From contig CM082579.2 of NCBI GenBank assembly GCA_040954595.2, positions 8,607,625 to 8,671,624 of the forward strand: a DNA stretch of 64,000 nucleotides. The letters run 5' to 3'. The notes beneath the pieces are model-generated. The model had not been told where the DNA came from. It ran no database searches and saw nothing but the letters and a program-made list of their open reading frames with translations. This DNA is from Balanoglossus misakiensis (lineage: Eukaryota; Animalia; Hemichordata). Made by a program: the position numbers and the translations under genes. Of the stretch, positions 74 through 59,397 are shown in pieces (positions within the stretch are counted from its first letter, which is position 1; the number at the start of each line of letters is the position of its first letter).

Positions 74-2421
74 TGCTGATCCTCATAGGCATGCCTACAA
101 TCAAACTGAGGGACGTAGGTTGCAGTCTGGTAGGTGCAGATACTCTGCAGACTGACATATGAGCCCCAAACTCCGGCTACGATGATAAGCAGCAAGGAAC
201 ACAAGAATGACCGGTGGTTTTCAGCTCCGATGCAGCTGTCAATCCTACGGAAACAGAGAAAAACACCACCTCTGGTTAAAGGCACGTAAGCTGCAACTGG
301 ATAAAAAATTAAAGTTTTAAATAATCTCATATATGCTTTTAATTATGTCTATTAAATGCTATTTCATGATAATATATCAAGCTCAACACTTATTTATGAC
401 AAAATGGCCAAAAATTAAAGAAAAACGAAAATTCCTACAATTTTAAAAAAAGTGCAATATTGCAATGAAAAATGAAAATCTGATGTATCAGTGGTGTACA
501 TTTACTTCCATGAGCTCAAGTGGATGAGATCATGTTTTGTTTATGAAGTTTCATAACCGGAAATGCAACATTTTCATTGTTTCTTGCATTTTCCCACGGT
601 GGCGGCCATAATCGCTTGCGGCAAAGCTTTATTATTTATCTGGTTAAAACTTGCATATGCACTCATATTTAGGGTTTATTATGCTTGTGTATAGTTCACT
701 GCCTTCATCTGCATGGACTAATGGTAGTGCAGTTTGAAACAAAAATTATGAAAATTATCCCAGAAGTTACAGCTTACGTGCCTTTAACTACAGTGGCACC
801 TAAGTCATTCTCTGATCTTGGAATACAGCTACACAGCTACTATTAATAAACAAAGTTTGGTTTTCTTAAAGTCTTTGACATAACTTGCTGGGGGGAATAG
901 TCCAATTCTGAAAACAACTTGAATTCTTACCACACACAATGATGATCCAGTGTTCGGACACAGTGCCTGCACACCTTGCAGTGTCCAGCTCTGGGTGGCC
1001 TGGTTATCCGACACACCTCGCACCAATTGTCTCCGTTCACATTATCAATGTTAACTGTAAATGAGTGACTCTGTTCACACAGCACTGTTTTATCGCCGGG
1101 TTTGCCGACCGAGGAGCCACAAGCTCTGGACACTGACGAGGTTCCTTCTCTGCGACTTGGTAGAAGCTCGTCGTACTGACCGCCGGAACCACTTCCGGGT
1201 GTCTGGCCGGACTTCCTGATGATCCCTGGATCCCGCTTGGAAAGGAAAAATGCCACGAACATGAGAAGTACTGTTGCCGCGATCCCGGCTAGCTCATACT
1301 CCGTCACATGGCCAAGCGGGACAACGCATCCAAAGAATATGACACCCAGGTAGACCACTGACACGAGCCCCCAGCTGTAGAAAAACCTGGTTCTGATTCT
1401 GAGTCTGGAGACCTGGCGAAAGTACAGCAGAGCGGCAAGAGGCAGGGTCACCAGCACCAGCACCGTCAGATAATAGTGCAAGGACGCTACGTACAGAGCC
1501 AGCGGGATGACAAAGACCGGAGGGAGGGCCGTAACGTCCGTCACTTCGTCAATTCTCCGGGCACCGCCGAGACACCACGGAATGCGCAGTCTGTCGCATG
1601 CCACTTCCCACACTCGGGTGAAATTCTCCACAGGGACTGGCTGGCACTTGATGAACCTGGTACAGGGATGGGGAGAAACACCTCTGTGAAATACATGTGC
1701 ATTGTACTCTGATCTGATCTGACCTTTAGTAGTTTGATGAATAACAATCAAGCTAATCGGTGTTGAAAGAAGGTGCATGAATATACATGTATTTGACAGC
1801 TGTACATACATGCTCATTATGATTATCATTACCGGTACATTTGCAATTACATGTTTTAATGCCGTCAAATTAAACTGCGTTTTCTAAAGCTGTGCCACAA
1901 AAGGGATTGTCTGTGGTGCCTTTGTACCTACAGAAAATTCAAAAGGACAGGTAGATTAATTTGACAAATTACGTAGTGAACTGGTATATTCCCTGGAATA
2001 CATTCAGAAATCATGATCAAGCGACCAGCGCTACAGCTGTACCGCCCTAAGTCGTACGCCACGGTTTTGGGACACTGTAGCTATGATGTGAAGTTGGAGA
2101 GGGGGGTCTGTCGAAAAAGCGTTGAACGTTTGGACAGTCAAGAAAATAAGCAACTGTAGTTCGGATATGGTTTCCTCGATCGCCAACAGTCGAGTGCACG
2201 CGCAAGTTGTCAACAGAATATTACTTCCGCAATGACAGCGGTAACACTCGATAGTTTCCACAAGATTAAATTCATAAATACCTGTCACATGTATCATCAA
2301 CAGCTTCACAGTCACAAAGGACGGCAAGAACGTGACTTTTTTCACCCTTGACATTCTTGTATTCGCAACAACACAGGGGTTCGCCAATATCGTCTGCACG
2401 AAGTTGACGTTCGACGACCAT
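74..2421 (-). CDS. ZDHHC23: DHHC palmitoyltransferase ZDHHC23-like (3' end beyond left edge)
   Basis: Exons complement(2282..2421, 931..1656, 74..244), GT-AG, phase-consistent. N-terminus MVVERQLRADDIGEPLCCCEYKNVKGEKSHVLAVLCDCEAVDDTCDR plus DRLRIPW matches the ZDHHC23-type N-terminus. DHHC-CRD: CEVCRITRPPRAGHCKVCRHCVRTLDHHCVW|IDSCIGAENHRSF. Confidence 0.93.
280..783. mobile_element. Non-autonomous DNA transposon, Kolobok-like (TTAA target site, AGG...CCT ends)
   Basis: TTAA at 276-279 and 784-787; terminal inverted repeats AGGCACGTAAGCTGCAACT / AGTTACAGCTTACGTGCCT; inside ZDHHC23 intron 2; related copies at 2498-2654 and 61736-62014. Confidence 0.8.
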
Positions 2422-3376: not shown

Positions 3377-3739
3377 CGAACTTTTGTACAGAAATGGGTT
3401 TCACTGCATGTTGTTTGACAAAAAAGCTATGGAAGTATTTGCTAATGATATAGGTCTAATCACAATTGCTTTAGGTGCTGAATGAAAGAACGAACAAACG
3501 AATGAATGAATGAATGCAAACATTTTATTTATTTATTTTTTATTTATCATTCACGGAAGTATTTGCTAATTATGATATAAGCTTAATCACGATCGCTTGG
3601 GGAGTGCTGAATAGATGAATGAATTAATGAATAAATGAAACATGAATATCTATCTATCTATTCAGTAAACATACGTACAGAGAACTTGAGCAGTAGTGAA
3701 GATACGAGGTGATGGGATCATTGCACCAGTGCCACCAAA

Positions 3740-6700
3740 ATGGAGCTCAGTCAAACTTATGCCGTGTTAGCTATAGGTAGCAGTGTAGATGATCAACGTC
3801 AGAATATGGCAATGTCCACGGACGACCCGATTTTCGCCCCGCCCGATTCACAGTGTCACGCTTGGGACTTCTCATCACCCACTGACTTTATCAATCCTTC
3901 CGACGATGGCGTGACAGCGGCGTTTCGGGCACGGCCCCTCCGGACCGGACTCATACGAGGCAAGGAATCGTACAGCAGCGGGACGCACGTGTTTGAGATC
4001 CACTGGCCGGAGGAGGGACGGGGTGAACACGCCTCTGTCGGAGTGACGACGGCGCTGCAGCAGCGCTCCTCCGAAGGGCAAACTGATCTCCTGGGGAGTT
4101 CGTCAGAGTCGTGGGGGCTGAACTTACATTGCGGCACTCTTCACCACGACGGCAGAATGGTGGGACAGTACGACGGGGGCAACCTGTTCCCGCACACCTT
4201 CTTTATTCACCTTGACGCTGACGCTGGTACAGTCAGGTGAGATTCACCATGCTTCTCCGTCGGTCGCCCCCCCCCCCTCCACTGTGATTAAAATAAAATG
4301 ATTTCAGCCCGGACTTCAATTCTAATAACAACATTCACAGTGTTTTCTATAAATCTGCTAACATATGCAAGCTGAAAAGTTTGTGACAGGTCCTGAAGAT
4401 TATTCGGCTGGAAATGCAATCCATTGATTGAAGGACCCTAGTTTTCTGGACTCTTTACAGCCGATTTAAATTAGAATGGGTTCATTCCGTGTCGTGTAAA
4501 TTCGGTCTAAATAATTGTATCTTCTCTATCTCATCCAGTTTCATGGCGAACGGGAGGAACCTCGGAGTGGCCTTCAGCGACCTGCCACACACTACTGTTC
4601 GACCGCTCTTCGTTGCCGCGAGCACCACGAACCAATACGAGTGTGCTATACGGATGAGGTATCTTGGCGACGGAGGTCAGTGGTCTCTGATCAGATGTTG
4701 GTTTAAAAAAATCAGGAGTCGCAATTTCCACTATCGTGTTATTGAGAATGTCCTGTTTTGTCGCTTAATTTAAGTAGGTACTTTCTGGGTTTTCAAACAA
4801 TATCCACAGATGCCGTCGTACCGGTGGAAATTATCAACCAGTCACCACTGTTGTACAGATCGCCGTGCACACCCGACTATACTTTCCATCCTCGGTGCGG
4901 GCGGAACATCGAAATTGTTGATGCCGGAACGACGGCCGAGAAGGTCAACGAAGAGTATGTTGCTCGCCACAGTACTAAAATCTAGTCAGATTATTCATTT
5001 CCGAAAATATTGCCATCACACGTTGGCAGTCATAATAACTGCAAAATAAAAACGGGATTTAAAATAGATTGTGTTGCTATTGACGACAAAACTCGGCGGC
5101 GGTTTTATAAGATATTTGATTTATTCGGTCAGGTTATAACCGTTTATCTATAACGTCTTCTTGTCCCAATTAGTAATCGAGTTCCATTTTTCGCTCAGAA
5201 TGTTCAACAATGCGGTAGCTTTAACGAGCCAACCGCTTGAGGTGGACCACCCGTTCGAGGTCAGGTCGGTTTCGAAGACGAGACGAGGCTGGAAAGGCAG
5301 CATCAGGATTGGATTCACGACGCTCTCTCCGCAGACAATGTGCTTCCCGTCGGACATCAAAGAGTGTTCCGAGGGACTGACCTATGTCTGGTGTGGCAGG
5401 CAGCTCTTCAAGAACGGTAACTTGGTGAGCGGAGCGCTGGACTTCGATTTGACGTCGTGCCAGGTACAACTTTTCAAGTCTTTTTTCCGTAGATAGAAAA
5501 TTCTTCTTCGTTTGCAGTTTGGGCGCGGATTACCAGGGAAAACCCAAATCAGAAAAAAAATGAACGGCGGCTTTCTTGGAATATTTACATATTTTATTAT
5601 GATATTACCCACTGACTGTTTCAGGTTGGTGACACGGTCGGCATATTGCTGACAGAGGACGGCTCTGTGCTTTTCTCCCACAACGGGCGATATCTTGACA
5701 CGTGCCTTGTGGCTTTCAAGCGTCCGTCACAGGTGTATGGGGTGGTGGATTTTTCTGGGCCAGTAAAAAGCGTTTCAATCACAGGTATGTCATTTCAATT
5801 TCTGGGCGATACAATAAACGAATAGAAACGATTGTATTTGTAAAAAAACTAGATGTTCGGAGAAATCAACAGGTCCTCCGCCATGTCAAGCTTATGCGCA
5901 AGCGCAGCGTCTTCGCCAGCCAATCTCTGTTGCCGGTTGGGGAATTCTCTTTATACTACATTTTGTACTAATTAACTTGTATGGGAGACAGTCCACACTA
6001 GATGTAGATGTGCAAATACCGTTAAAGGGGTGCCGTGATATCGCAGTGGCAAATATGAATATTCATTGACATACTGTCTACGGTATATTTGTATGCACAG
6101 CCTACCTATAAATATTACTACGAAAAAACATTTGTGGCTTTTTTGACCAATAGAAATACATTTCTGTTCCAGACGATGCCTTGGTTACGCCTGTCGTTTG
6201 CCGTTACACTGGCTCGTCAACCACTACCGCCAGCGGTAACGCGATTGAGGACTGCATGGAAGCTGCGGTGGACAGACTGATGAGAAGAAAAGCCAGCACT
6301 GGCTCCCTGGAGGAGCAATTCCGCGACATCGAATACTTAATGCGCCCCTTGGCAGGCCAGACCCCGCCAGAAGTTCAGCGGCGCTTTGGGGCCCTGCTGG
6401 TGGGTCGCGGAGTGGCAGGGGCGCTGGCAGACCTGCTTCGCGTCCTGCACAAGGGAGACGCCAAGTCCAAAGTGACGCTGCGGGGGCTTGATCTGGTGAG
6501 CCGATTCTGTTGCGAGTACACCAGCGTCAGTCCGGAAATGTGCAGAAGCATCGTGGAAAGCCCGCTGCTGGGCTTGCTGAAGCAGGAATTTCACGGATAC
6601 TGGTCACGGGGGGAGCTTCTGACGAAAGTACTCAGAAACATAAAGATGTATGACTGTACACCTGGTAAGAAATTACTGGTTGTAGATTGTGGCACGGATG

Positions 6701-7173
6701 TGCTAAAATTGATTGCATTATTTGAAGGGATATAGGAATGAAGGCAATCGTAAAAAGAATGTTTCCGGGGGGAGGGGGTTGTCTCGAGAAACCGGTCGTC
6801 CAGTGTAGCATTTGATTGACTGACCGACTGAATGAATGAATCAATGAATGAACGAACGAACGAACGAACGAATGAATGAATGAATGGCCGATTTCAGATT
6901 ATGTCAAAACTACGGGAATGACAAAAACAATTGTCTAAGTATCTCATTTTTGAGTCTCGCGTTCGTGTTATGTTTTATACAGGTTCTCATACAAGATCCG
7001 AGAATAGACCAGAAGCTGATTCGACGAACGGAAACCGCCGAACATTCCCCGAGGCAGAGACGAGCTCGCCACAGGTGGTATTTAACCACCACCATCACAG
7101 CACCCACTACAATATCAACGGCTGTTCAATCGTACAGATTGGTAACAACAACGTTACTGTCCAGGCTTCGTGA
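3740..7173 (+). CDS. Multidomain protein: SPSB-type SPRY + neuralized homology repeat (NHR) + truncated ARM-like helical region + C-terminal RHIM (about 628 aa)
   Basis: join(3740..4236,4539..4675,4810..4954,5199..5463,5625..5784,6173..6664,6983..7173)=1887 nt, all GT-AG, open frame. SPRY: IRGKESYSSGTHVFEIHWP..RGEHASVGV..LLGSSSESWG..LGVAF..MRYLG. NHR: FHPRCGRNIEI..FNNAVALTSQPL..WKGSIRIGFTT..VGDTVG..VYGVVDFSGPVKSVSI. Tail: YNINGCSIVQIGNNNVTV. Confidence 0.85.
6826..6885. repeat. (GAAT)n/(GAAC)n microsatellite
   Basis: gaatgaatgaatcaatgaatgaacgaacgaacgaacgaacgaatgaatgaatgaat in the last intron; a similar tract at about 3480-3515. Confidence 0.85.
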
Positions 7174-9489: not shown

Positions 9490-9756
9490 TTGTGTGAATA
9501 GAGTGTTGCCTCATGGCATGAATGCAAGGGAATTTTTGAAGGGAATAACTGACTTCATCATTGGTTCAACGAAAATTGCCAAACAGTTCACAGTCAAAGA
9601 GATCTACAACAAAGACGGGAACAGTGTATATATAGGCCTATGTACGTCAAGAATATTAATGTTTGTTATTTAAAGATATTTCTCCTGGCCACCTCACTTT
9701 GAATAATCTTTATCGTTTTCAGATCATTTAGCTGCAGTTTGTGACACTGACGAAAA

Positions 9757-10892
9757 ATGAGCTTCAACCCGCTGGGCAAACTGTACAAACACCTGGACGA
9801 GAACTTGAAGCGGGCGGACGTCAACGCCATGAAGACGCTGCTGCGGAACAATCACCTGCCGAAGCGCGACGCCGAAAATCTGCAGACGGCTGCGCAGATA
9901 TTCGAATACTTGGAAGACAGGGGCGTCATCGGGGAAGACGACCTGAGTTTCTTGAAGACGCTGCTCAGGGAGATCGACCGGGAACCGTTGATAAGAGCCG
10001 TTGAACGCTATGAGAGGGAGGCGGGTTTAGATCCGGGTAAGTGTCGTTCTCATCTCGGTGTGCAGACGTCACCAGAACATTGGCAAAGTATGCAAACGAT
10101 TGGTTCGGGAGACAGCGACGGGAAATGGTGGAGAATCCCGTTGTAACAAAGATTTGCCATAAATAACAGTTAGAGCCTCTGGCAGATGAAACATTGAACG
10201 ACTGATAAGTAACCGGGGTATAGCTGATAATTGTGTCAGGCGTATGTGCAGTATTTAGAGGGAATCCTACATGATGTATTTGCAGCCAGCGACATAAAAT
10301 GCCTTGATGACTCGAACACGCTGTTATGGCATTAGAGGGCGCACAGCTTAAACTCATAGCATATGCATGACCCTTTCCCATCATCACACAGTCCTCCGTT
10401 TGTGTTTTCCCCATAGTCAGTGGTGCTGCAAATGTCTATCAAGAAACTCACGATTCGATGAAACCGAAATTCATATCATCCCCACCTGCTGTCACAAACA
10501 TCGACGATTTACTTGCAGAAATCTTGAACTCTGTCAGAGGTTCTAAGGGCCAGGTAGGTTATCTTGACCAGAACACATTAAAATGAATTTATAATGTACA
10601 GGGGAACTACTATACAGTATACATACATACATACATACATACATATTCTGATTTGCTTCCTAATACAATTTGTAATATGTATATACAGATTTGTATTAAA
10701 GGGCGTGATATCTCATACAAAGCTAGAGGAAGGATACATGGATGGGACGATCCCTGGGTGTACGACGCATGGGCGATGGATCTGGCGACTAAACACGAAG
10801 AGAAAGCCAGTCACTACCGGGATGAAAGCGACGCCGTCAGGGCAGCCATACGGAGACTGGTGGACCATCTGAAATCGAAGGGTTTTCTGTGA
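9757..10892 (+). CDS. Death effector domain (DED) protein with a C-terminal domain of unknown function (about 206 aa)
   Basis: join(9757..10036,10417..10553,10689..10892)=621 nt, phase-consistent. DED pattern LYKHLDENLKRADVNAMKTLL..LPKRDAENLQTAAQIFEYLEDRGVIGEDDLSFLKTLLREIDREPLIRAVERYE. No death domain or caspase domain follows. AATAAA near 11554. Confidence 0.85.
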
Positions 10893-11770
10893 CATCTTCG
10901 ACTTCGTTCGGGTGCCCACAGCTCACTGTGCCGTTGATGTGGTGTCGGTGGCCGGGGTGACCAGGACGATGTTCGTTCCGATCGATGAAATCATTAGCTT
11001 CAAATATGAAAGCAATGGTGTATTTGCATGCTCTATTTATGGGTCACGTAAAACGGGTCTTTATTTATCAGTTATAGTTCTCTATTTCATAGTAAACTTT
11101 AGGTGAGGTTATTTGGCAAGCTTAGTAAACATGTAATTATGATTTTCACAACGGTGATGATGTGGCTATCCTCGGAAGATTCAAGGACCCCTTATTATCA
11201 TTTTTAAATTTAAGCAAATATACTCGATTTTCCTTAACAAAAGACGGGCAAATTTTAAGACATGTCATTTAGAAGAGTTCTTTTTTAAACATTGACAGTT
11301 TACAAATTACATGCATCGCCAGGACCCATGAAATCACAACGCATTTTGATCGGAACAAACTCGTTCAGCGCCCTCCGTCGACGCAATATCAAGCGGCCCA
11401 GCTCAGCTCGAGTAGTCTTGGTGCGCGTGCGTGTGAATACATGTACAATGTATACCAAAATAACATCAACTTTGGTGCTTCCTTCACCATTTTATGTCAT
11501 AGGTCATTGCCTGAATCATAATCTGTCATCTATAAACTTTTTGTTAGAACTTTAATAAACTTGATGTGAGATGTTAAAGCCTCAAACATTTTAACTGTTG
11601 TGTTGCTTTCGATATTTTTGATATTTGTGTCAACTGCAGTTTCTTATTCGACTGCCTAAAGCGTGACGACATGCCAACGACACGTGTTGGCGGACAATGA
11701 CATGTGGTCATTTCATTCACAGTAGAAGTGACCCCAAATAAGCCCATTGCGTATTCTCGGGTAAGCGTAA

Positions 11771-12235: not shown

Positions 12236-12653
12236 ATAGAAAACTCTCCGGGCAAAGATGGCCGACTTGAGACAAATGCGATGCATGATGGTTGCAGCCT
12301 CAAACATAAAAAAAACATGCTGAGAAGTGCTAGACCTGCTAAAACTGTCTACAAATTGAAAAGAGAGAGAGAAGTTTGGTAAATAGTTTTCTAATATCGT
12401 CATATCATAATATCAAATGTTAAAAATGCGCAGAATTCTGGTGAGAGAAAATTGCTCAGTCACATGACTGTTTAAATAAACATGTCATAGCAGCTAATAT
12501 CAGAGGTGAACTTTGATAAATACGTCAACGAGTCCCGTAAAATCTGTAGACTCTCTGATTTACGGCATGCCATATGCAGTGTGACATCCCACCTCGAAGT
12601 GAACAAGTTCACTCTGGTAAAAAAAATTGCCGCGCAATTTACAGTATTCCGCC

Positions 12654-14824
12654 ATGTCTGATGTTCCTGACGCCCGCATATTAAGTAAGAATGATAGTAG
12701 CCAAGTCAAAATCTCTGATGGAAAACTCAAATGTCTGCCTTGCAGAATAACCACACGCCTCGCAGATACCAGCATGGCTGCTGCTCGCTCGAAAAAGCTG
12801 ACCTCGCCTGGATATCGAAAGAACGTTACCAGCATAGACTTAAGATGTGAGGAACTGTACGATGAGTTCTTTGCAGAAAACGCGTCTTCGCCTATGGTAA
12901 AGGCACTCCAGGCTTTAAGGCCGGGCCCTCATTTCGATATCAATATGGCAACCAGGCTTGTTTCCGAAAACTTGTACAAGTACGTGAACAACGCACCCAT
13001 CTACGAGAGACGAGTGGCGCTGGCCGACAAGTTGACAGCGCTGGACGGTGGTACTGTGCTTGCCAGTGTTCTTGTTGAGCTGATGACGAAACGCAAACCT
13101 ACAGAATACGAGCTGTTAGCTATAGGTATAATATGCTGCACCTGTAGCCTGTTCGCATCGCTCAGTTCGGAGTTGTGCGCGCAGCTTGGGCGGACAAAAC
13201 TGCTTGGCATTCTGTTGGAAGACACAGATGCGTATAGGCTGGGAGAAAATCGAAGTAAGGTGAGATTTGCATTGGTTTAATAGTGGAATATGCGGTTGCA
13301 TTATATCATGATGTTAAAGGCGTTATAAGGTGATATTTCGGTAACATGGTGTTAAAATTGGATGACAGGTTTGGGGAGAAACCGAGACATATTTTAAACA
13401 GCTAACGCAACATGACGATTTGTCCTTCTTGCAGGATCGCTGCGTTTCGGCTCTCTACATACTACTGAGCTGTTCTCGGGTCCCTGGGAATCAAGGTATG
13501 CTTGGCGAACTTCACGCGGCCGAAAGACTGCAGTGGTTTGTTGAAAACAGGGATCTGGAGATGGCCATGGTGTCGCTGTTCACCGTGGCTCACGTTTACG
13601 GAGACACGGGACCGGCGGCCCGAGATAAAGTCATTGACTACATTATCGACTCCTTGGAGTGTGCCGCGCTGGCTGGCCGGTACGCACGCTCCAAAGAGTG
13701 CAAACTGACCGTGCCAGAGATCCTCGCAGGACTGCGCATGGTGGCGCGCAACGAGAAGTCCAGTTCGCTGTTGGTTGACAAGAACATTGTTCGTGTTCTG
13801 TTGGACATTTTGAACGACGGCGATCAGGAAGAACAGGTTTGTGTTATACAGCTCCTTGGAGATTTCGCAGCACTGGAACGGAACAGGAAGAAGATTTTAG
13901 ATACTGCGGGTCCAATTCTCAGTAGGGTTTCCCAAAATGGCACTGAAGACTTACGTTCCATGATTTACGATCTTGTGCTTTATAGACTGCTGGCCAGTCC
14001 TGAGAATATCCATGGTAAGGGTATATTAATAATCCGAACGCTAATGTGGCATTTTCAAAACATGATAAACCCGAATAGAAATAACATTAAATTATAACTA
14101 AAAAATCATATCATCTACGATGATAGGACTATTTTAAGACAAAAATAATTCGGTGTTTTAGGATCTTCTCATTTAAACTCATCACAAGTGTAAATAACCT
14201 CGTTGGTTCTTCTTTGAACGGTTTGATTTTTTTAACAACGCAATACATGTAAACGCCACAATACAGTTAGCTATTAACAGTCGTCGGCAGACTGAAAGAT
14301 TCAGTCGTGTGCGGGCGCTCTGGCGCACTTCGAGCTTAGTATCGTAACCACCGTGGCATTTCTGTTTCTGCATCAGGCCGACCTGACAGCAAACGTCAGG
14401 GGAGAATTACACTGGACGAGACGAGAAGACACAAGTCGGCAAGCACACCAGAACAGAATACAGAGGCAGACTTGACAAGAAGCATGATAGGTCATCAGCG
14501 TGTGCAGGGAGGGCAGGTTGCCAACGGTCATTACAATACTATAACCATAAACAACTACTTTCCGTGTAACGACTGTCATTCACCAGGTTGGTTTTTCCAT
14601 ATAATATATTGAAGCGATCTTGAAGTCTGCATATTTATAAATAAAGAAATTGATCCACACGATGTCTACAAAGATGTCTTTATCTGTCTGTCTGTCTGTC
14701 TGCCTGTCTGTCTCTCTATCTCTCTCTCCCTCCCTCTCCATCTGATTCTCTTCTTTGTAACTTGTTTCCAGATATTCCGTGGAAATCAGCGACGATGCCA
14801 CCGCCATACAACGATATCCAATGA
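12654..14824 (+). CDS. Armadillo/HEAT-like repeat protein A (about 482 aa), no TIR domain seen
   Basis: join(12654..13259,13435..14014,14377..14586,14772..14824). Helical repeats: RVALADKLTALDGGTVL..FASLSSELCAQLGRTKLL..SALYILLSCS..EILAGLRMVARNEKSSSLLVDKNIVRVLLDIL. First two exons are solid; the last two exons and the start codon (alternative ATG 12774) are less certain. Confidence 0.75.
14683..14740. repeat. (GTCT)n/(CT)n microsatellite
   Basis: tctgtctgtctgtctgtctgcctgtctgtctctctatctctctctccctccctctcc, intronic. Confidence 0.85.
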
Positions 14825-17596: not shown

Positions 17597-20500
17597 ATGA
17601 GCGCGGACACCGAGGACGGTCCGTCTCTGCAACGGCGCTCCAAGGTCATGATGCCGAGAAGCCGGAGTGTCATCACCAGCGCCGACATGGAAGACCTTCA
17701 ACTCGACGCTGACGGCGACGCTGCTACCGCGGCGATAAATGGCGGTGAAGACGGAGACGGTGATCAGAGACAGACCGAGGCTTCGCCAGCTGCCACCAGC
17801 AGTACCAGCCCGCAACTTTCACCCGCAGCGAGAGACCACCGGGATAGGTTCCCGAGTTTTGACTACACGGGCGATGACGGTAAGCAGTGAGCCAAAATTG
17901 CTGGAATGGAATGCCTTTGAGAGATGGTGCTTTCGCGTTGTTTGTAATGTATGGGGGTGGTCATGTTTACTTGTGTAGGTTGTAAACGCATGGCTGTGAG
18001 TGACTGTATACCTTGCGCCACTAAAGGTACGCTCCGCTTCGTCCATTGTCGTCTGTAAAACCACGGGTCTTATCTGTCAAAAAACAACGTGCACTTCTCA
18101 ATACTGCATGAAGCAGCCACTCTTCTCGACCCTGTCACTGCAGCACCAGGCTATTTTGCACCATACTGTGCGAAATGGCGAGGTGCTTGCTCATCGCCAT
18201 TTTGTCCAGCCCCCCGTTTAATTGTGTGCATCGGTGGAATGTCAATGAACAAACGGACCGCCATTACTGATGTAACGCACGTAGAAACGGCGCGTAAAGA
18301 TAGCCAGCAATGGCCTAAGCATGTAAACATGAAGTGTACAAAGGCGTTACAGATCGCCCGACTTCCCACTTCTCAACTTCTGAACGCCAAAGCTCACACT
18401 TCAAAGGTCGGCTACAGTTTATTATAAGTCGCCAAATCTACCTGCCAACATAATTAGAGTATATGTCGAGCATTTCTCATCTCTAGTAAACGTTGTAACC
18501 AGATGTGAACTGATTAGGCCTACGTATATTTTAAAAATTAATTCCACGGAATCTGCATAAAGGTTCATCTTTTGTGCTGTGACATTTCCCAGTACATGTA
18601 TGTTGAAGTGGGTAAATTATAGTACATTGAAGTAGGCAAATAAACAGTTACTAGAAAATTCACGGTAGTCCCCAATGTTCAACCGCACATTTGTGTGAAT
18701 ATCTCTGCCCGTGCTGGTTTTGGATGCATTAGACGAGTGTCAAAACTTAACATGCAAATCATAGCGTTGTGACGTCAACATTTGCAGAAGAAATACGACT
18801 TGTTAATGCAGTGCTTTCTTGCCGGTTGTAAATGTATGTCAGCATGTAAATTCAAGGATAAAGTATAAAGACTAGTCCGAACTTTCAATTTTGAATAATA
18901 ACAGTTCTAATTGTAATCATAGGGGGCTTTGCCCATATCTAAACATACTCGGCATTTTAGAGTCGAACACGGAAATACTCTTGATTCACAGAATTACGCA
19001 CTGAAAATATTCAAATACTGAAGCCAGTGGGTTTTTACATGTAGCTGTGTACCGTAAGCGTTTCGTGGTAACTTTGATAAACTGTGATATTTATGATACA
19101 CTGAGCGCCTCTTTTTGAACTTTGTACGGACAGGTCCGAGCAGAAAACCAACAGATAATCGTGACATTTCGCAGCGAAGAGAGCAGGCGGGTACAAAACA
19201 TTCACGCGGCGTTAAGATGACCCCAACGGTTGATTTCGGGCAGCGAGACGCCATCGGGAAGATGGCGCAGGCCGTGGAGAGCATGAAGCGGAGCGAGGCG
19301 AACGACATCTGGGACATGACGCGGGAGGTCGCCACTCACATCTACATGCCCTTCCACGCCACGCACAGCGAGCAGACCCGCCACCAGCTGGGCGACTACC
19401 TGGCGACCTCGGGCGGGGGCCGCGAGCTCACCTGGTTCCTGGCCAGCCTGCTGGAGATCGAGGACAAGACGGAGAGGATCTGGCAGTCCATACACTTCGT
19501 GCAGAACACCTGCTGGGACTACTCCGACGTCAGCCTGACGCTGTGCAAGGAGTTCGGCAAAGGCGGACTGTTGAATCTCATGTTCACGAACCTTGAACGC
19601 TTTGGATTGCAAAAGTACACTACCATGGTAAGTACGTGTATTAACCGTGCGTCTCAATGTAGGAAGTTACAAAATCCGACACAGGTGAAAGTAAGGGACT
19701 ACTTAGAGGTAGTTCCTGGTTATCACACTCCATAGCTTATATGTGTAATTTTGAGAAAATTGTGTTATAATATTATACTTTTCTGGAAGTTTTCTCTAAC
19801 GCTGTGTTATAACGCAAACACCACACATGCCATGTCGACAAAATGTTTGCTTGGTTTTTATCGTTGTTGTTTACTTCCCGATTGGGATTTGGTTTTATTC
19901 TGGTGTCGGTTGTCTGTGTCGTGACCGAGTGGTTGGTTTGTTTTGGCAGGTTTATTGATTACCCGAGCGTCGTGAGCTGCAACTTACATCAACTCCATAT
20001 CTTGTCATTTTTGGTTTGGTTTGATTTTCATTTGGCAGCTGTCAGCCATTATTTCGATTGCTGAGTGGAAGTTTATGACGACTTGCTTATCCAGTGCTTC
20101 AATATGCTTGTCTTTCAGGGATTATTAGACAAGTATTGTTAAACTTATTTCAGGAAATGATATTTATGTACAGTCATGTTTTTTTTTCATCACGCGTGTA
20201 TATTTTCCCCTGACAGAATGAACGTCTCTTGGTCATATCGTCGCTTAATATTTTACACAACTGCTCGAAAACGTTTAAGAACTTGAAAGAGTTCAAAGGC
20301 CAGAATGCCGTGAGGAAACTGCAACCGTACACGAGTGCGCGGGACAAAGAATTAGCCATGCTCGGACTCTTCATTCTGTCGTACGTGGCGGACGACACCG
20401 AACTCGATGTTCTGAGTTCGAGTAACGAGATGACGGACTACATCCTGGCGATCTTGAACAATGCTTTGGACAGCCCTACCTTGAAAGGGAGGTCGTCGGA

Positions 20501-21645
20501 GGGGAACTTTTCCGCTGTGGAAATCCTCAAAAGTTTGTCCAATCTCGCCAGAAATGACCGAAACAAGTCGAGTATGGTGAGCCGGGAGGTCGCGCACATA
20601 CTGTTGCAGTTTTTCCAAAGGGGGCGCTCGCCCGAGAAGAAGTTCGCCGCCAATCTCCTGACGGTGCTGCTGAAGTTGCCGAGCAACCGGACGAAAATCA
20701 TCGAGACCAAGGGACTGGTCAACATGGTGAATGGTCTCTGTAAGAGCCACGACGCGTCCGTCAAAGAGGCTGCCGAGAATGTAATGATGGCTATTATGAG
20801 ACCCGCCTCTGTGACTGATATACCAGGTGCGTTAGGCGGTATGGTCGCCGTTTGGTACTCAAGGTCGACGATCGTCTCATGCGCACGTGTTTAATTTCGT
20901 GTGAACAAACACTAGACCCAATCCAAATGTTCTGCAAATTTTGCGTTCGACGCAATCAAATAGCGGACTGTCTTCGTTTCCTTTCATATTTCCTGCGCAC
21001 TGTATAAGTAAACTTTACTTTTGTCCCTTTTCTTCGCCCAATTTGCTGTCTTTTATCGGTCACCGACACAGACTATGGTCGCCGCCATCTTGTCTGTTGT
21101 CAGGACAGCACATTGCCTTATGGCATTGACTATACATTTTTTGTAACCAGGGACTCTGGTTTACACGTGCGCATAAGACGATCATCGCCCTTTAATGTAA
21201 TGAATCACAATCCTTCCATGATGGTGGCGTATTTCTTCACGTTGGTATTTCTGTAGATACAATCACATGACTATATGCCTGTACACGAAACTGTTTACAT
21301 GTATTAAGAAGCAAACGTGAAGAAACAGATGGTCAGTTGTGCATAACATATCGGTAAAAAAAATACCATTCTTTCGTGTGATGTACAGGTAAACGGGAGA
21401 AGGCTGACCTTGCCAGGCAGAGGTCAAAGCAAGCGCATCGCAGTTTGGTGTACACCAGCGGCCGCCCCGACGACGACGACGACGACACATTTGAGCTGCC
21501 ACTGCCGAAGCCGCGCTCACAGACACTCGGAAGAGCCGTCACACTGAACGGCACTAACAGCGCCAACCAAAATCCCCGGCACTCTGTCGACATTTCCGAG
21601 GCCACCGATGTGGTGTTCGAGAACGAAGAAGACTCGGTCTGTTAG
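17597..21645 (+). CDS. Armadillo/HEAT-like repeat protein B (about 547 aa), paralog of A, no TIR domain seen
   Basis: join(17597..17879,19134..19627,20217..20826,21389..21645)=1644 nt, GT-AG, open frame, GC3-rich exons. Motifs RHQLGDYLATSGGG..CWDYSDVSLTLCKEFGKGGLL..SSLNILHNCSK..FSAVEILKSLSNLARNDRNK; low-complexity N- and C-termini. Confidence 0.85.
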
Positions 21646-24360: not shown

Positions 24361-27300
24361 ATGTATAAGTTGTCAGATCCCAGCAGCACATTTTGCGCGC
24401 TCATAGCCATCGCGCTGTTGTTCGGCCATCAAGTTTGTCACGGTGGTGGCATGAGTTTGCGGAACTTTTTGGGAAGTCGTAAGTATGGCATGTTGTATTT
24501 AAAACCCTTTGTTTTCTAATTTTGGTGGTTACCAGCCTTAGTACGCCAATCTTGATAGTTGCGTGACTTTGTTCCGTTTTTGACCATATAAATGCCCTTT
24601 TTTGTTGAAATTAATAAGGAAATATACTACTGTTTTTTTTTTAATTTGGATTTATTACTGATCTTTCTTTGTATGCCAAACGATATTGGCATGATGTATT
24701 TGATATTGTTATTCATATGAACAAAATATTGTTACTTCCTTTTAAAAATTACTACATGTATTTATGCGAAATTAAGGAATTTTTAGTACAAACCTATCAT
24801 GAAGATTTTGCCATCAACTTGATTTTAACACTTGTTTTGTAAAATGGGCTTGACTTTAAGGCGTTTGTCGACTCCCATCCCATTTTTACATGGCAAGCGC
24901 TTTACTGTTTGGGGTTGTTTTATGTTGTTTTAGGTGAAAATGCCCCAGATTCGTCACTAAGAATAAAGAGAGAAGCTGGTGTTTTCGATGTGTTGTTGGT
25001 TTTCGCGGACAACCAGCTTTACTTCGGTAGAGACGGAAACACGTTTGGGCCTGTTAATGGCTCTTACGGCGTTGTGGATGTGACGATTGTGGACGAACAC
25101 TCGCTGATTCTGGGCGTGGGTTTAGATCACCACTTGTATGTCGCAGACATGAACTCACCGACATTCGCGTGGATCGGTCCTTTCGACGACTCGTGCTGCG
25201 TGATAAGCGTTGCGCATGTTTCGCCGGTAGGGGTGCTGCTGGGGGTCGGCACGGACGGCCAACTGATGACGTTCCACGCCGCCGAGGGAGACGGCCGCGA
25301 TACGTGGCACTCGCTAGAGTTCTCTGCAACGTCGCTTCTCAAAGTGGAAGTGTTCGCCGACGGCCAGGTATTTCTCGGAATCGATACAGACTACCAGATT
25401 GTTCGCTACGACGACAACGACGGCTGGGTTCGCACGGAAGGACCAGCGAGTGGAGAGGCTTACGTCGATGTAGTGCGAATGCCTGATGGTTCCCCCATGG
25501 CTTTGATAAAAGGGAGTGAGACTGACTTTTCTGTTATCGGCGGGTGCGGTATTCCCTCTGCCGCGGAAGCTGTTTCTGCTCCGATGCCTGTCCACGGAGG
25601 CAAGTATTTCAAATCAGACATGCGTTTACATATGCTATGATATATAGCGACTACATAACAACCATACCGCGACCATGGGCAACCCAACCTGGCGATAGGG
25701 TGCCTGTGTTGTGATGAAGAGTATTAAAGACTACCCAGCATCCAGTACCCAGCTAATTACCGTGGCCGATAACTACAAAGCGTGTCTAGGTTTCTCTACA
25801 CCCACCTTTTTGCAAAAGGCGTGTGTAGGGAAACATGGACACGCTTTGTAGTTATCGGCCGGCCACGGTAGCTATCAATCTGATTAAAATCAGATGTAGG
25901 GAACGGCGACTTGGTTTTTTTATGCTGTCGCCTCACACTACGACAGCATAAAAAAAACCAAGTCGCCGTTCCCTACATCTGATTTTAATCAGATTTGGTA
26001 GCTATAAGAGTACCATTGTTTCCAGCAGGTACAACACCTCCATTATTTTCCTACCCAACGGCCACATTTCCCAATCGGGTAGATGACTACCCAGATGCAC
26101 TGTGTGGTTATCACATTCCATAGCCTTACTGTACATGTAGAATTTTAAGAAAACAGTGTTAGAATATATAGTCATTTTCGTGAAATTTGCACATAAGGTG
26201 CCAAAAAGAGGAGTGTTATAAAATGATACAAAGAGAACACTATGTCACCTCGCTTGGTTTTTTGATAGAGTTGTTCAGACATTTTCACCATAGGAAAACT
26301 ATAGGATTAGCGGTGCGAGAAAAGTGCTGACTCAGCATTTTCCGCAATCTTTGAGACCCCCCTGACCGCTGGAAAATACCGTGGCTGTGATTGGTTGCCC
26401 ACCTAAAATATGTGTTCTTTTGAAACATAGGCGAGCGCAGGTGTAAATAAACAATCCTCACGCGACTGTGTTGCGGCCATATTGGATCGCATCGTGATGC
26501 AAATTTACATGCGCACGTGTGTCATAGGCCTAATACATTGCCCCCCAATGAACCATGTTGGTTTTCACGCTCTGGCAACGGTGACTAAAACTATCGTGTC
26601 ATTTTCTTTTGTCAGGGGAGTGTTACTATGATCCTGTAGGTTCTGACTATCGTGGCGATGTCAGCGTTACAGAGCACGGGTTTCATTGCCTCGTGTGGAC
26701 AGACGTACCAATGGTCCGAGACAATCTTCAAGCGTTGAGACAAGCCGGCGTTGGCGATCACAACTTCTGTCGCAACCCAACCGGGATGCCGAAAACGTGG
26801 TGTTTCACAAAGCTGGGGGGTCTCGAGGGTCCGGAAGTTGACTACTGCGACATAGGATTGCCTGGGGATCTGTGTGAACGAGGTCTGTAACGAATTTCTG
26901 GAGACCATAGATCTGTCAAGTTTTTGTTCCAGATTTCTGAACTGATCTTTCCTTACTCACAATATACGTCAAACGGTTCCCAGGGTGTGGTCTGCACAAT
27001 TTTCCATCCGTAGCGTGTAATACATGTACACAGAATTTTTGTGCATACGGTCGAGGTAATACCAGAAAATAAAGTATAATACATGTATATTATACTGATC
27101 GTTTTAGAAGTGTTTAAGTTCTGATGAATTGTGATATTCTCTGTCGTATTCTGCAGATCCAAATGATGGGTCCCCCACGCAAGCAACATCGCCACATCAG
27201 GAGGAGGCCGTTCGATTGGGTGACATCCTTCAAGGCGAAAGGAACACGATTCCCGTGATCGCAGTGGGCAGTGATCACCAACTGTACGTTGGCAAACCGA

Positions 27301-29320
27301 CAAACGGCCGGTACGACTACACCGGTCCGGTACCGGGCACCTGCTGCATCCTGGACGTGTCCGTGATGACGTCAGGCCGTTCACTGCTCGCCGTCGGCGT
27401 CGACAACCACCTGAGGGTTTCCACAGACGATCCCGCCGCCGTTGGCTGGCAGGATCCGATAGCCGGCAGCTGCTGCGTTTCCAGTGTTGCCGTGGCGGAA
27501 GACGGCGCGGTCTGGGGGAACATGCTCGGGGTGGCACCGGGGCTGTACAAGCGGTTGACGCACGGCAGCCCGTGGCAAGGCCCCGTCGTTGAGGGCCAGC
27601 ATCTCTTGAAGGTGGAACCCGGACCGGGTGGGCAATTCATCGTCGTGGATCACTCGTACCGCCTGTTCACCCTGGATCGCGAGACCAAGCACATGAAACC
27701 CTTGGCAGTTGACACAGAGGGCGTGCCAATCGTAGACGTTGCCGTGGGTCCGCATGGCAACTATGGGTTGTTACTGTTTGAGGTGGCCGATATCGGTCAC
27801 TTCATGACGGCTATAGCGTATGGAACATTACCTCAAAAATATCTGCAAGGTAGAGTATATTAAAACAATTAAAAAAATTCCTTATCGCATAATCTGTGAT
27901 AATGAATATCCCGCCAGTTATCCCAACGACGTTGACATACGAATAACATACATGATTAACTTACATTTTGCCAAAGCTCATTTTCGTTTGTCTCGGTCGT
28001 TAGCGTAAAATTTAAAAAAAGTTCAAACATGTGTGTACGTGGGGGGGGGGGGGGGTCCACCATTGCCCAGATCATTGTTTTCCTTCATTTCGAGATAGTA
28101 TATTTGTATATCCTATATCATAGGATATTTTATATACAGTCTTTAGCATATATTAACGATAAGATTTAGTCTTCATTTCTGCATAATTTCATTTTCTTTT
28201 TCGATAATTCACAGCAGTCCCAAGACTAACTACAAAATCATGGACGGCTAGGCAAGGATCGACGGCTGGACAGGGTGAATCATTTCATTTCGAGATAGGA
28301 TACTTTTTATATCATATATTTTGGGATATTTTTATTTATAGTCTTTTGCGATATTAACAATAACATTAAGTCTCCATTTCGGCATAATTTCGTTTTACCA
28401 GGCCCAAGACTAAGCACAAAATCATCGACGGTTGGGCAGGGTGAATCGGAGATGGATGCCAAACCTCTCACTGGAAGAAATGACGCGAAGACAACCGCGG
28501 AGATTGTTTCCGTATATGGACGTGGTGTATTGAAAGGTAAACACCGTTTTCACCCACAGTTCAAATTTTCCAAAGTTTAGTTACATGGCCTAGGCCTAAT
28601 AGTTTTCAAACAACATAATTCTCCACAGCAAATGTGTTAACGAGCAGTTTGCAAATTTTGACAAGAGACCAGGGGATCGAGCGAGGTGCCTTTAAAGGGA
28701 CAAAGTCTCTCTCTCTCGCTGCCCTTTTGCCATTAATTATGTTTGATACAAGACACCGATTAATATGTTATTCTACATGTGAATATATACTATGAACGTT
28801 TGACCACACACAACTTCCACCCCACTTGTGGACACGAGAGTGAAAAACTCGCCAAAATAAATAATCGACCTCTACCGTTTATTCATTTTGGCGAGATTTT
28901 TACTCTCACACCCTACAAACGGGATGGAAGTTGTGTGTGGTTGAACGTTGATTCACTATATATCCACAATCATGTAAAATAACATAAACGGTGTCTTGTA
29001 TCAAACATAATTAATAGAAAAGGGGCAGCGAGAGAGAGACTTAGTCCCTTTTAACAACTGTGATGAAAGTAAAGTTCAGCACCGACTCGTTTTGTTCTTA
29101 CAAGTATCCGTTTCTCTTCTTGTTCGCTTGTACAGTAGGCAGCGAGAAATCACCTGGCACCACGTACATCGGGGTTGGAGTGTTCGGAGCTGTTTTCTGT
29201 CTGTTTTTTGCCGCCCTCGCGTATTACCGTTCGAAATCATCCACAAGTGACCACAGCGACGACGACACCGCCTCGTGGGTCGACGTGCATGGCTCAGTCA
29301 AAGACGAGCAAAGGGTGTAA
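24361..29320 (+). CDS. Type-I membrane protein: signal peptide, propeller-like repeat domain, kringle, second propeller-like domain, stalk, TM, short tail (about 690-710 aa)
   Basis: join(24361..24478,24934..25599,26616..26882,27157..27849,[28215..28274],28402..28536,29136..29320), all phase-1 introns, intron 2 GC-AG. Signal FCALIAIALLFG; RIKR furin-type site; kringle ECY..DYRG..CLVW..HNFCRNP..WCFT..YCDI..C; about 40-aa repeats GP..SCCV..V..LLGVG.D.QL; TM YIGVGVFGAVFCLFFAALAYY. Confidence 0.82.
25760..25868. mobile_element. Hairpin MITE with TA target site (Tc1/mariner-like)
   Basis: TA|CCGTGGCCGATAACTACAAAGCGTGTC...GACACGCTTTGTAGTTATCGGCCGGCCACGG|TA; nearly the whole element is one inverted repeat. 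Confidence 0.65.
25876..25996. mobile_element. Foldback MITE with 9-bp target duplication (MULE/Foldback-like)
   Basis: About 55-bp perfect arms AATCTGATTAAAATCAGATGTAGGGAACGGCGACTTGGTTTTTTTATGCTGTCG; GGTAGCTAT duplicated at 25867-25875 and 25997-26005. Confidence 0.8.
28083..28447 (+). repeat. Diverged tandem duplication (about 200 and 165 bp) covering an intron 3' end and the start of an exon
   Basis: Both units begin TTCATTTCGAGATAG and end CCCAAGACTAA..ACAAAATCAT..CAGGGTGAATC. Confidence 0.85.
28696..29050. mobile_element. MITE with about 60-bp TIRs and TTAA flanks (Kolobok-like)
   Basis: TTAA|AGGGACAAAGTCTCTCTCTCTCGCTGCCCTTTT..ATTAATTATGTTTGATACAAGACACCG and its inverted copy at about 28989-29050 followed by TTAA. 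Confidence 0.8.
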
Positions 29321-39400: not shown

Positions 39401-39773
39401 TGCATGCGAACACTAAAAAAGACAATCTATACGGGCACGGAAGACTCTTACCGTGGATGTCGTGATCGAATTTCGTGCCGCTCACTTTTCCGTCGTCCAA
39501 AATCTGCAAGTGGTACCCGGTGAGACAGTACAGTTGCCGGTAGTAGAGCGGTTTGCTGTACATGCTGGCTGGCGAGTTGGCTCCGCGACACGTGCATTCT
39601 CCTCCCTGTCCAGCCTGGGCATCTCCTCCGCCGGTCGCTGCAGACTCGCGCCGGGGGTTGGGCGCCGGGACAGCTCGGCCGTCGACGACCACACCGGCTC
39701 CGGTGAAGAAGCCGCCGAGACCGAGCACGAAAAGTGCGAGGACTCCCGTCTTGTAACTAGCGGTGCGCGTCAT
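30487..39773 (-). CDS. FGF9/16/20: Fibroblast growth factor, FGF9/16/20 subfamily (about 233 aa)
   Basis: complement(join 39452..39773, 31112..31215, 30487..30762). Three-exon FGF layout with a 104-nt middle exon. [18 protein letters not shown]; [20 protein letters not shown]; EECHFRE..NWY.TYSS; C-terminal [14 protein letters not shown] typical of FGF9/16/20. Confidence 0.93.
31945..32330. mobile_element. Probable small TIR element in FGF intron 1
   Basis: 14-bp inverted ends GTGACCAGGTGTGG / CCACACCTGGTCAC (extra left copy at about 31901); internal direct repeat CTGGTCTGGAAACCGCGCCCAGAAG twice. No clear TSD. Confidence 0.45.
36436..36576. mobile_element. Foldback MITE, same family as 25876-25996
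   Basis: Ends CAATGATTAAAATCAAATGTAGGG / CCCTACATCTGATTTTAATCAGATTG; flanks AATCTTGAC (36427-36435) and AATCTCGAC (36577-36585); shares the internal segment TAGTGTGAGGCGACAGCATAAA with the 25876 copy, in reverse. Confidence 0.78.

Positions 39774-59365: not shown

Positions 59366-59397
<32 letters not shown>

What the first reader, a model, noticed from the sequence alone, without database searches (positions are those of the whole stretch)
9757..10892. DED fused to a compact domain with a dsRBD-like pattern instead of a death domain or caspase
Seen: the C-terminal 85 aa IDDLLAEILNSV..ISYKARGRIHGWDDPWVYDAWAMD..HEEKASHYRDESDAVRAAIRRLVDHLKSKGFL read as helix, three or four strands, helix; the DED RxDL motif is altered to REPL. 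Established: dsRBDs are alpha-beta-beta-beta-alpha with Y..GP.H.P.F..KK.A..AA..L. The spacing here is similar, but the RNA-binding KKxAK is replaced by ESDAV. Inference: an atypical single-DED adaptor or decoy with a protein-binding dsRBD-like or novel domain.
Basis: partly seen in the sequence, partly recalled or inferred. Interest (0 to 1): 0.7.

Follow-up and report, generated by a model that had tools for sequence, protein, structure and literature searches.

The report
Death adaptor with anti-LPS-like domain
A gene, likely from an acorn worm, joins a cell-death signalling domain (DED) to a domain predicted to fold like the secreted anti-endotoxin peptides of shrimp and horseshoe crabs, so it would likely act inside the cell as a microbe sensor wired to caspases, which is untested.

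Summary
In detail: three GT-AG exons (9757-10892) encode a 206-aa protein with one DED (Pfam E 2e-20; RxDL is REPL) and an ~87-aa C-terminal domain. Annotated proteins of three hemichordates have the same layout, and all keep RxPL. The C-terminal domain is better read as anti-lipopolysaccharide-factor (ALF)-like than as a dsRBD. Of its 39 phmmer hits, 9 match Pfam ALF/scygonadin and none matches dsrm. A model of the Ptychodera ortholog has helix, four strands, helix, and ranks shrimp ALF (2JOB) first in two PDB searches. It is not a true ALF: no signal peptide, no disulfide, no third helix, and about 1 of 7 LPS-site residues. Relatives fuse the domain to caspases (sea urchins) or to a nucleoside phosphorylase (coral), in several cases across a membrane-like segment, which fits a sensor role. 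Best reading: a cytosolic ligand-sensing DED adaptor; the ligand and the sign (activator or decoy) are untested. The scan earlier noted an ALF-like caspase prodomain in a sea urchin. My searches found no paper on an ALF-DED fusion.

The parts
9748..9750 (+). In-frame TGA just upstream of the start codon; candidate splice acceptors of a non-coding leader end at 9722, 9731 and 9737
9757..10036 (+). Coding exon 1 (residues 1-93): ATG, no signal peptide, single DED
9787..10020 (+). Death effector domain, residues 11-88; charge-triad acid D21 kept, RxDL changed to REPL (R75-P77), T27 where caspase-8 DED1 has F
10037..10416 (+). Intron 1 (380 nt, phase 1, GT-AG); no open in-frame cassette exon that encodes a hydrophobic segment
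   Evidence: 2 of 43 AG..GT candidates open, both hydrophilic
10417..10553 (+). Coding exon 2 (residues 94-139): hydrophilic linker, then predicted helix 1 of the ALF-like domain (about residues 120-132, nt 10494-10532)
10554..10688 (+). Intron 2 (135 nt, phase 0), between helix 1 and the strands; holds an (ATAC)n microsatellite at 10619-10645
10689..10892 (+). Coding exon 3 (residues 140-206 and stop): four predicted strands and helix 2 of the cysteine-pair-free ALF-like domain; conserved R145, R154, H156, V163, D165, D170, H181
11554..11559 (+). First AATAAA downstream of the stop codon; candidate polyadenylation signal, unverified

Best explanation
The gene encodes a DED joined by a hydrophilic linker to a domain predicted to have the anti-lipopolysaccharide-factor fold, and it likely works as a cytosolic pattern sensor and adaptor: the ALF-like domain would bind a microbial surface molecule, and the clustered DEDs would recruit a DED-bearing caspase or FADD. 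Shown: gene structure, DED, conservation in three hemichordates, sequence kinship of the C-terminal domain with PF11630-matching proteins, no signal peptide or membrane segment. Predicted: the fold, from a model of the 61%-identical Ptychodera domain rather than of the window's spliced protein. Inferred: cytosolic location; loss of the disulfide as a fit to a reducing compartment; a ligand site on the open sheet face built from conserved R154, H156, V163, D165 and H181 (facing judged from strand alternation, not from coordinates); ligand-driven DED clustering. The ligand may be lipid A/LPS (my estimate about 1 in 4) or another microbial glycan or lipid, since the classical shrimp LPS site is mostly not kept.
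For: Nine of 39 hits of exon 3 match PF11630 at E<=0.01. A profile built only from 15 repeats of five PF11630-positive proteins scores exon 3 at 45.8 bits; the best shuffle scored 8.5 (1840 of 2000 shuffles reported) and the reversed sequence 0.3. The AF2 model has pLDDT 87 and helix-4 strands-helix. Foldseek ranks 2JOB first (TM 0.67, rmsd 2.6, E 0.042). VIA-align ranks 2JOB first of 48,161 chains (Z 8.2, 85 residues aligned, rmsd 2.8). The ESM Atlas top structural neighbour is an arthropod cluster, 41% PF11630, TM 0.79, against 0.63 for a dsrm cluster. Fusion partners are immune effectors: caspase in Diadema and Lytechinus, PNP_UDP_1 in Stylophora; PMC8195603 (passages) lists caspase and PNPase as effector domains of such systems. 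In the Diadema caspases, the coral-type PNP fusions and the Glandiceps DED protein, a hydrophobic segment separates the ALF-like domain from the effector, the layout of a receptor ectodomain. An intron between helix 1 and the strands matches the exon plan described for shrimp ALF genes (PMC6213531 section 2.2; exact position not compared). Caspase-8 DED2 also lacks RxDL in the alignment, so RxPL need not disable the DED.
Against: By my manual register, only 1 of the 7 charged residues of the ALFPm3 LPS site is kept (R152). D165 sits where ALF has K46, in 31 of 34 rows. The hairpin has net charge -1 and the domain pI is 8.1. Shrimp group D ALFs with 2 of 7 residues bind LPS 20-fold less (PMC3701609 passages). 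The window's exon 3 has no direct PF11630 hit at E<=10. All five hits above the Pfam cut-off are multi-repeat proteins, and the best single-domain hit (24.1 bits) is just under the cut-off of 25. Family profiles and P0013 did not find 2JOB by sequence. The Foldseek E-value is not significant, and the VIA lead over dsRBDs is 0.9 Z. The DED departs from the consensus at RxDL and at the caspase-8 F position in all four species, which also fits a decoy. No binding, expression or partner data exist.
Confidence: 0.45

Rival explanations
1. Decoy or brake. The protein binds FADD/caspase-8 DEDs but caps or diverts the DED filament, like PEA-15 or vFLIP. The ALF-like domain gates, localises or sequesters ligand.
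For: Single DED with no catalytic domain. RxPL instead of RxDL, and no F at the caspase-8 DED1 F position, in 4 of 4 species. PEA-15 is among the PDB matches of the DED. The charge triad matters for DED interactions, and MC159 caps filaments (PMC5580472 passages). The role of the F-L motif in filament growth is recalled, not read.
Against: The closest PDB match of the DED is caspase-8 (E 7e-10), not PEA-15 (E 3e-4). Relatives fuse the same domain directly to caspases and PNP, which points to triggering.
Confidence: 0.2
2. Two-headed adaptor. The ALF-like domain has become a protein-interaction module that binds other ALF-like domains or a host receptor, taking the place of FADD's death domain; no microbial ligand is involved.
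For: The same domain occurs alone (Desmophyllum, Lytechinus pictus), as a caspase prodomain and fused to a DED, as death-fold modules do. The earlier scan note e1-7908818 describes an ALF-only gene beside an ALF-caspase. LPS-site residues are lost. dsRBD-like folds without KKxAK often bind protein (PMC4748816 passages).
Against: In several relatives a hydrophobic segment lies between the domain and the effector, which would put it on the far side of a membrane. Tandem-repeat versions with an N-terminal hydrophobic anchor (P0013, P0039) look like multivalent surface binders.
Confidence: 0.18
3. Nucleic-acid sensor. The domain binds dsRNA or another polyanion and couples it to DED signalling.
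For: dsRBDs fill most of the structural list just below ALF (Z 7.3-5.3). There is a basic row K150, R152, R154, H156 on strand 2.
Against: No dsrm hit; KKxAK and GPxH in 0 of 69 stored proteins; the start of helix 2 is acidic; four strands are predicted; sequence kinship is with ALF.
Confidence: 0.07
4. The ALF likeness is convergent or too remote to inform function; the domain is a separate dsRBD-like family with an unrelated role.
For: No direct sequence hit of the window or of the family profiles to 2JOB or PF11630; 12% identity in the structural match; Z near 8 is described by the tool as middling.
Against: The transitive sequence link holds against shuffles; 4 short single-domain members match PF11630 at E 4e-5 to 6e-3; three structure searches, on two independent models, rank ALF first.
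Confidence: 0.1

Closest known systems
Anti-lipopolysaccharide factors / scygonadins (Pfam PF11630; ALFPm3, PDB 2JOB)
   Same: Predicted helix, four-strand sheet, helix arrangement (Z 8.2 over 85 residues); sequence kinship through relatives; an intron between helix 1 and the strands.
   Different: No signal peptide, no hairpin disulfide (0 of 34 rows have Cys at either site, by manual register), no third helix, about 1 of 7 LPS-site residues, fused to a DED, found in a deuterostome. The papers read describe ALFs as single-domain secreted peptides confined to chelicerates and crustaceans.
FADD and PEA-15 (single-DED proteins)
   Same: One N-terminal DED, no catalytic domain, a second module or tail at the C-terminus.
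   Different: The second module is ALF-like rather than a death domain or an ERK-binding tail; RxDL is RxPL.
Double-stranded RNA-binding domains (PF00035), including protein-binding types such as Loqs dsRBD3
   Same: Similar sheet-plus-two-helix architecture (Z up to 7.3, up to 75 residues in the top rows).
   Different: An extra strand, no KKxAK or GPxH, no Pfam dsrm match.
Mammalian caspase-4/5/11 cytosolic LPS sensing (recalled, not read here)
   Same: Proposed logic only: a cytosolic microbial lipid drives oligomerisation and caspase activation.
   Different: Those caspases use their own CARD as the sensor; here a separate ALF-like domain would be the sensor and a DED the link.
Amphioxus 'direct connection' innate-immunity proteins (PMC2575513, passages)
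   Same: A sensor domain shuffled onto a death-fold connector in an invertebrate deuterostome.
   Different: The passages read list NACHT, TIR, LRR and caspase combinations, none with an ALF-like domain.

Membership tests
Death effector domain (PF01335) | Pfam match above the curated cut-off | tested here: met
   73.1 bits against 35.9, E 2.2e-20, residues 11-88; PDB matches are caspase-8 and PEA-15
Death effector domain (PF01335) | D/E-RxDL charge triad | tested here: not met
   D21 and R75 kept, D replaced by P77; RxPL in the window and all three hemichordate relatives; motif defined in PMC6651876
Death effector domain (PF01335) | Binds FADD or caspase-8 DEDs | not testable with these tools
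   No partner sequence from this animal was available; needs a binding assay
Anti-lipopolysaccharide factor (PF11630) | Four-stranded sheet packed with helices, as in 2JOB | tested here: met
   Model of the Ptychodera ortholog domain: 2JOB first in Foldseek and VIA-align; lead over dsRBDs under 1 Z
Anti-lipopolysaccharide factor (PF11630) | Direct Pfam PF11630 match | tested here: not met
   No hit for exon 3 at E<=10 or for the full Ptychodera protein at E<=1; 9 of 39 relatives do match
Anti-lipopolysaccharide factor (PF11630) | Two cysteines closing the central hairpin | tested here: not met
   I147 and D170 at the equivalent places (manual register); 0 of 34 rows with Cys at either
Anti-lipopolysaccharide factor (PF11630) | Signal peptide, single-domain secreted peptide | tested here: not met
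   Highest 19-residue hydropathy 0.84; in-frame stop before the ATG; N-terminal DED
Anti-lipopolysaccharide factor (PF11630) | Three helices (two at the C-terminus) | tested here: not met
   The protein ends after helix 2; the model aligns to 2JOB residues 4-91 of 102
Anti-lipopolysaccharide factor (PF11630) | Seven charged LPS-site residues of ALFPm3 | tested here: not met
   1 of 7 (R152) by a manual register against the numbering in PMC3701609; anionic ALFs also lack most of them
Anti-lipopolysaccharide factor (PF11630) | Binds or neutralises LPS | not testable with these tools
   Needs an LAL-inhibition or lipid A binding assay
dsRBD (PF00035) | Pfam dsrm match | tested here: not met
   None for the window exons, 39 hits or 24 aligned members
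dsRBD (PF00035) | GPxH loop and KKxAK patch | tested here: not met
   0 of 69 stored proteins; motifs as given in PMC4748816. Protein-binding dsRBDs also lack them
dsRBD (PF00035) | Alpha-beta-beta-beta-alpha fold | tested here: inconclusive
   The model superposes on dsRBDs (Z up to 7.3) but has a fourth strand and fits ALF over more residues, 85 against 75

The most novel reading that the evidence does not exclude
ALF-like domains are not an arthropod-only family of secreted peptides but an old, disulfide-free microbial-pattern sensor module that corals, sea urchins and acorn worms have fused to DEDs, caspases and nucleoside phosphorylases, on the cell surface or in the cytosol. This gene would be the cytosolic adaptor form: an invertebrate route from bacterial envelope sensing to caspase-8-type activation that uses neither TLRs, NLRs nor caspase-4/11 CARDs.
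Probability: 0.3. Interest if true: 0.85.

Novelty: new variant of a known kind. Interest (0 to 1): 0.62.

Why it matters
The papers read treat ALFs as secreted antimicrobial peptides of crustaceans and horseshoe crabs only. A disulfide-free ALF-like domain fused to death-signalling modules in hemichordates, echinoderms and corals would widen the family and recast it as a signalling sensor. It would also give a small, expressible candidate (206 aa; domain about 87 aa) for how invertebrate deuterostomes detect bacterial products inside cells. Pfam misses the domain in these animals, so the receptors it marks (ALF-like/TM/caspase, PNP/TM/ALF-like, DED/ALF-like) are annotated as 'uncharacterized' or by their effector alone.

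Tried and rejected
Word-index protein searches missed known relatives: no hit for exon 3 or the DED, and 1 hit for profile A1 among longer proteins. These blanks are uninformative, since one search found a 61%-identical protein. A single-sequence AF2 model of exon 3 came out all-helical (pLDDT 67, pTM 0.35); it was set aside for the 34-row model. ESM Atlas feature searches gave nothing usable. PDB sequence searches with exon 3, A1, A3 and P0013 did not find 2JOB; the PPR hits come from flanking repeat columns of the untrimmed profile. P0026 and P0037 were dropped as false hits. The two prokaryotic loci from GTDB score under 7 bits with the family profile and are chance; the single pattern used was narrow, so absence from prokaryotes is not shown. 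No second copy of the domain or of the DED was found in the window. A hidden transmembrane exon in intron 1 was not found. The alternative frame of exon 3 was rejected on lack of support. No RNA holder was listed. No whole genome is held, so paralogs and the native FADD/caspase-8 could not be examined. My first guess of amphioxus was dropped in favour of a hemichordate. An earlier count said 10 of 39 PF11630 matches; the correct count is 9. Literature searches for the fusion: 2 crustacean survey papers hold both terms; listing only, not read; 0; 2; one read: a PF11630 gene in a rotifer table; none of 25 listed holds 'ALF-like domain' or 'DUF3254'; nothing on this in the listings. The library lacks most subscription journals, and I recall, unverified, reports of ALF-like genes in a clam and a planctomycete. 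No supplements were opened; those of PMC8195603 list many domain architectures and may bear on novelty.

Full report
Gene model. An in-frame TGA at 9748-9750 precedes the ATG. Exon 1 encodes a DED (PF01335, E 2.2e-20) whose best PDB matches are caspase-8 and then PEA-15. No stretch is hydrophobic enough for a signal peptide or membrane anchor (maximum 0.84), and intron 1 hides no in-frame hydrophobic exon. A second open frame over exon 3 has no Pfam hit. No RNA run was listed and no genome is held.

Relatives. phmmer of exon 3 against 1.84 billion representatives gave 39 hits at E<=1e-3; 37 are matched by the family profile. The best are RefSeq proteins of Ptychodera flava and Glandiceps talaboti, and a Saccoglossus kowalevskii protein is also among them; all three are DED plus this domain. 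They are 59%, 44% and 34% identical to the window's product. In a tree of 50 domain copies (81 columns; isoforms, near-duplicates and copies under 35 bits left out) the window groups with Ptychodera (97/82) and then Glandiceps (99/95); Saccoglossus is unresolved. The window is therefore likely from an acorn worm (inference). The Ptychodera model has the same junction and frame at exon 3. Eleven of 34 rows of A3 have a Q preceded by an unrelated stretch at that junction, as read-through of an intron at the same place would give (inference).

What the domain is. Exon 3 has no Pfam or PDB sequence hit of its own. Nine of the 39 relatives match PF11630, anti-lipopolysaccharide factor/scygonadin, at E<=0.01, and none matches dsrm. 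Five of the nine pass the curated cut-off, all multi-repeat proteins; the best single-domain one scores 24.1 against 25. A profile from 15 repeats of those five proteins scores exon 3 at 45.8 bits; the best shuffle scored 8.5 (1840 of 2000 reported). AlphaFold2 on a 34-row alignment headed by the Ptychodera domain (61% identical to exon 3) gave pLDDT 87, pTM 0.74 and helix-four strands-helix. Foldseek ranks shrimp ALF 2JOB first (TM 0.67, rmsd 2.6, E 0.042), followed by dsRBDs (TM 0.52-0.61). The ESM Atlas's own model finds an arthropod PF11630 cluster at TM 0.79 and a dsrm cluster at 0.63. So structure alone places the domain among dsRBD-like folds with ALF ahead, and sequence tips it to ALF. 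Against this, family profiles did not retrieve 2JOB by sequence, and a single-sequence model of exon 3 was all-helical and poor.

How it differs from ALF. Papers read as passages describe ALFs as secreted, single-domain peptides with three helices, a four-stranded sheet and one disulfide, found only in marine chelicerates and crustaceans (PMC3701609; PMC6213531; PMC10672452; PMC11767717). One table lists a PF11630 gene in a rotifer (PMC12220480). The window's domain has no leader, stops after helix 2, and has I147 and D170 where ALF has its cysteines (manual register, consistent with the aligned ends; 0 of 34 rows have Cys there). Of the seven LPS-site residues of ALFPm3 only the K35 equivalent (R152) is kept, and the hairpin's net charge is -1. 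Shrimp ALFs with 2 of 7 such residues bind LPS 20-fold less. The family has its own conserved set: R145 (33 of 33), D170 (34 of 34), R154, H156 and D165 (31 of 34 each), V163 (32 of 34) and H181 (28 of 34). By strand alternation R154, H156, V163 and D165 would face the open side of the sheet, the side ALF uses for lipid A; I had no coordinates to confirm this. It fails membership of the ALF family but may work like one, with a changed ligand.

Architectures. The domain occurs alone (Desmophyllum, two nearby locus tags; Lytechinus pictus), before a caspase (Lytechinus variegatus; Diadema with an N-terminal hydrophobic stretch and a second one before the caspase), after a PNP_UDP_1 phosphorylase and a hydrophobic segment (unnamed proteins P0012 and P0054; a Stylophora protein is in P0054's cluster), after a DED (three hemichordates; Glandiceps with a hydrophobic segment between), and as tandem repeats in unnamed proteins. 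Caspase and PNPase are effector domains in the immune systems discussed in PMC8195603 (passages; no mention of anti-LPS or scygonadin in its main text). One small domain paired with several unrelated effectors, in some cases across a likely membrane segment, is what a sensor module looks like. This is the main functional argument, and it is inference. Two GTDB loci were chance matches.

The DED. The acidic triad residue (D21) and R75 are kept, but RxDL is RxPL in all four species, and the F of caspase-8 DED1's helix-2 K-F-L is T, T, M or N. The triad is important in MC159 and PEA-15 (PMC5580472, PMC6651876, PMC4631386; passages), yet caspase-8 DED2 lacks RxDL in the alignment. These changes are conserved, not decay, but they leave open whether the DED seeds or caps a filament.

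Mechanism. Most likely (0.45): the ALF-like domain binds a microbial envelope molecule that reaches the cytosol, several copies cluster, and the DEDs recruit a DED-caspase or FADD. Rivals are a decoy (0.2), a protein-binding two-headed adaptor (0.18), a merely convergent fold (0.1) and a dsRNA sensor (0.07). The dsRBD motifs GPxH and KKxAK (PMC4748816, passages) occur in 0 of 69 stored proteins.

Novelty. Searches showed no paper on an ALF-like domain fused to a DED or caspase, or on ALF-like genes in hemichordates; I saw listings only, except where stated, and the library omits most subscription journals. PMC2575513 (passages) shows that shuffled death-fold fusions are common in amphioxus, so the general kind is known. 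The scan itself earlier noted a sea urchin caspase with an ALF-like prodomain (e1-7908818); I had found such caspases before that look-up. It holds nothing on the DED form. Verdict: a real, conserved, apparently undescribed domain fusion; new variant of a known kind; interest 0.62.

Noticed in passing
window 3713-6732 (+): Upstream neighbour(s) with SPRY (E 1.5e-4) and Neuralized (E 1.1e-11) pieces followed by a helical, ARM-like ORF at 6154-6732 (ARM label for that ORF is by eye).
   Followed up: no
window 12621-14609 (+): Downstream gene with ARM-like ORFs (13366-14094 is 31% identical to 20214-20891, E 1e-18). An ORF at 14340-14609 has a RHIM-like stretch near 14500-14555 (motif recalled; no Pfam hit). 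With the DED gene this may be a small innate-immunity cluster.
   Followed up: partly
window 19097-20891 (+): Second ARM-repeat gene (weak ARM_ARMC5 and ARM_PUB matches, below cut-off), paralogous to the one at 13366-14094.
   Followed up: partly
window 24843-27860 (+): Two related, possibly beta-propeller-like ORFs (24843-25637, 27135-27860) with no Pfam family at E<=0.05, flanking a Kringle exon (26585-26887, E 4.8e-14); possibly a membrane receptor.
   Followed up: no
window 10582-10872 (+): A second reading frame is open across almost all of exon 3 and reachable by an alternative acceptor ending at 10701; it would give a DED with a different 56-aa tail. No support found.
   Followed up: partly
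proteins P0014, P0052, P0053 (Diadema) and P0012, P0054, P0068 (Stylophora cluster and unnamed): Apparent single-pass receptors: ALF-like domain, hydrophobic segment, caspase; and PNP phosphorylase, hydrophobic segment, ALF-like domain.
   Followed up: partly
proteins P0013, P0025, P0028, P0036, P0039: Unnamed proteins with 2-5 tandem cysteine-poor ALF-like repeats, two with an N-terminal hydrophobic anchor; they form one clade (98/90) and give the strongest PF11630 scores.
   Followed up: partly
window 930-1883 (-), 39399-39851 (-), 43098-43445 (-), 53177-53470 (-), 57984-59938 (+): Ordinary genes: DHHC palmitoyltransferase, FGF, COMM-domain protein, EF-hand protein, 3-beta-HSD-like.
   Followed up: no
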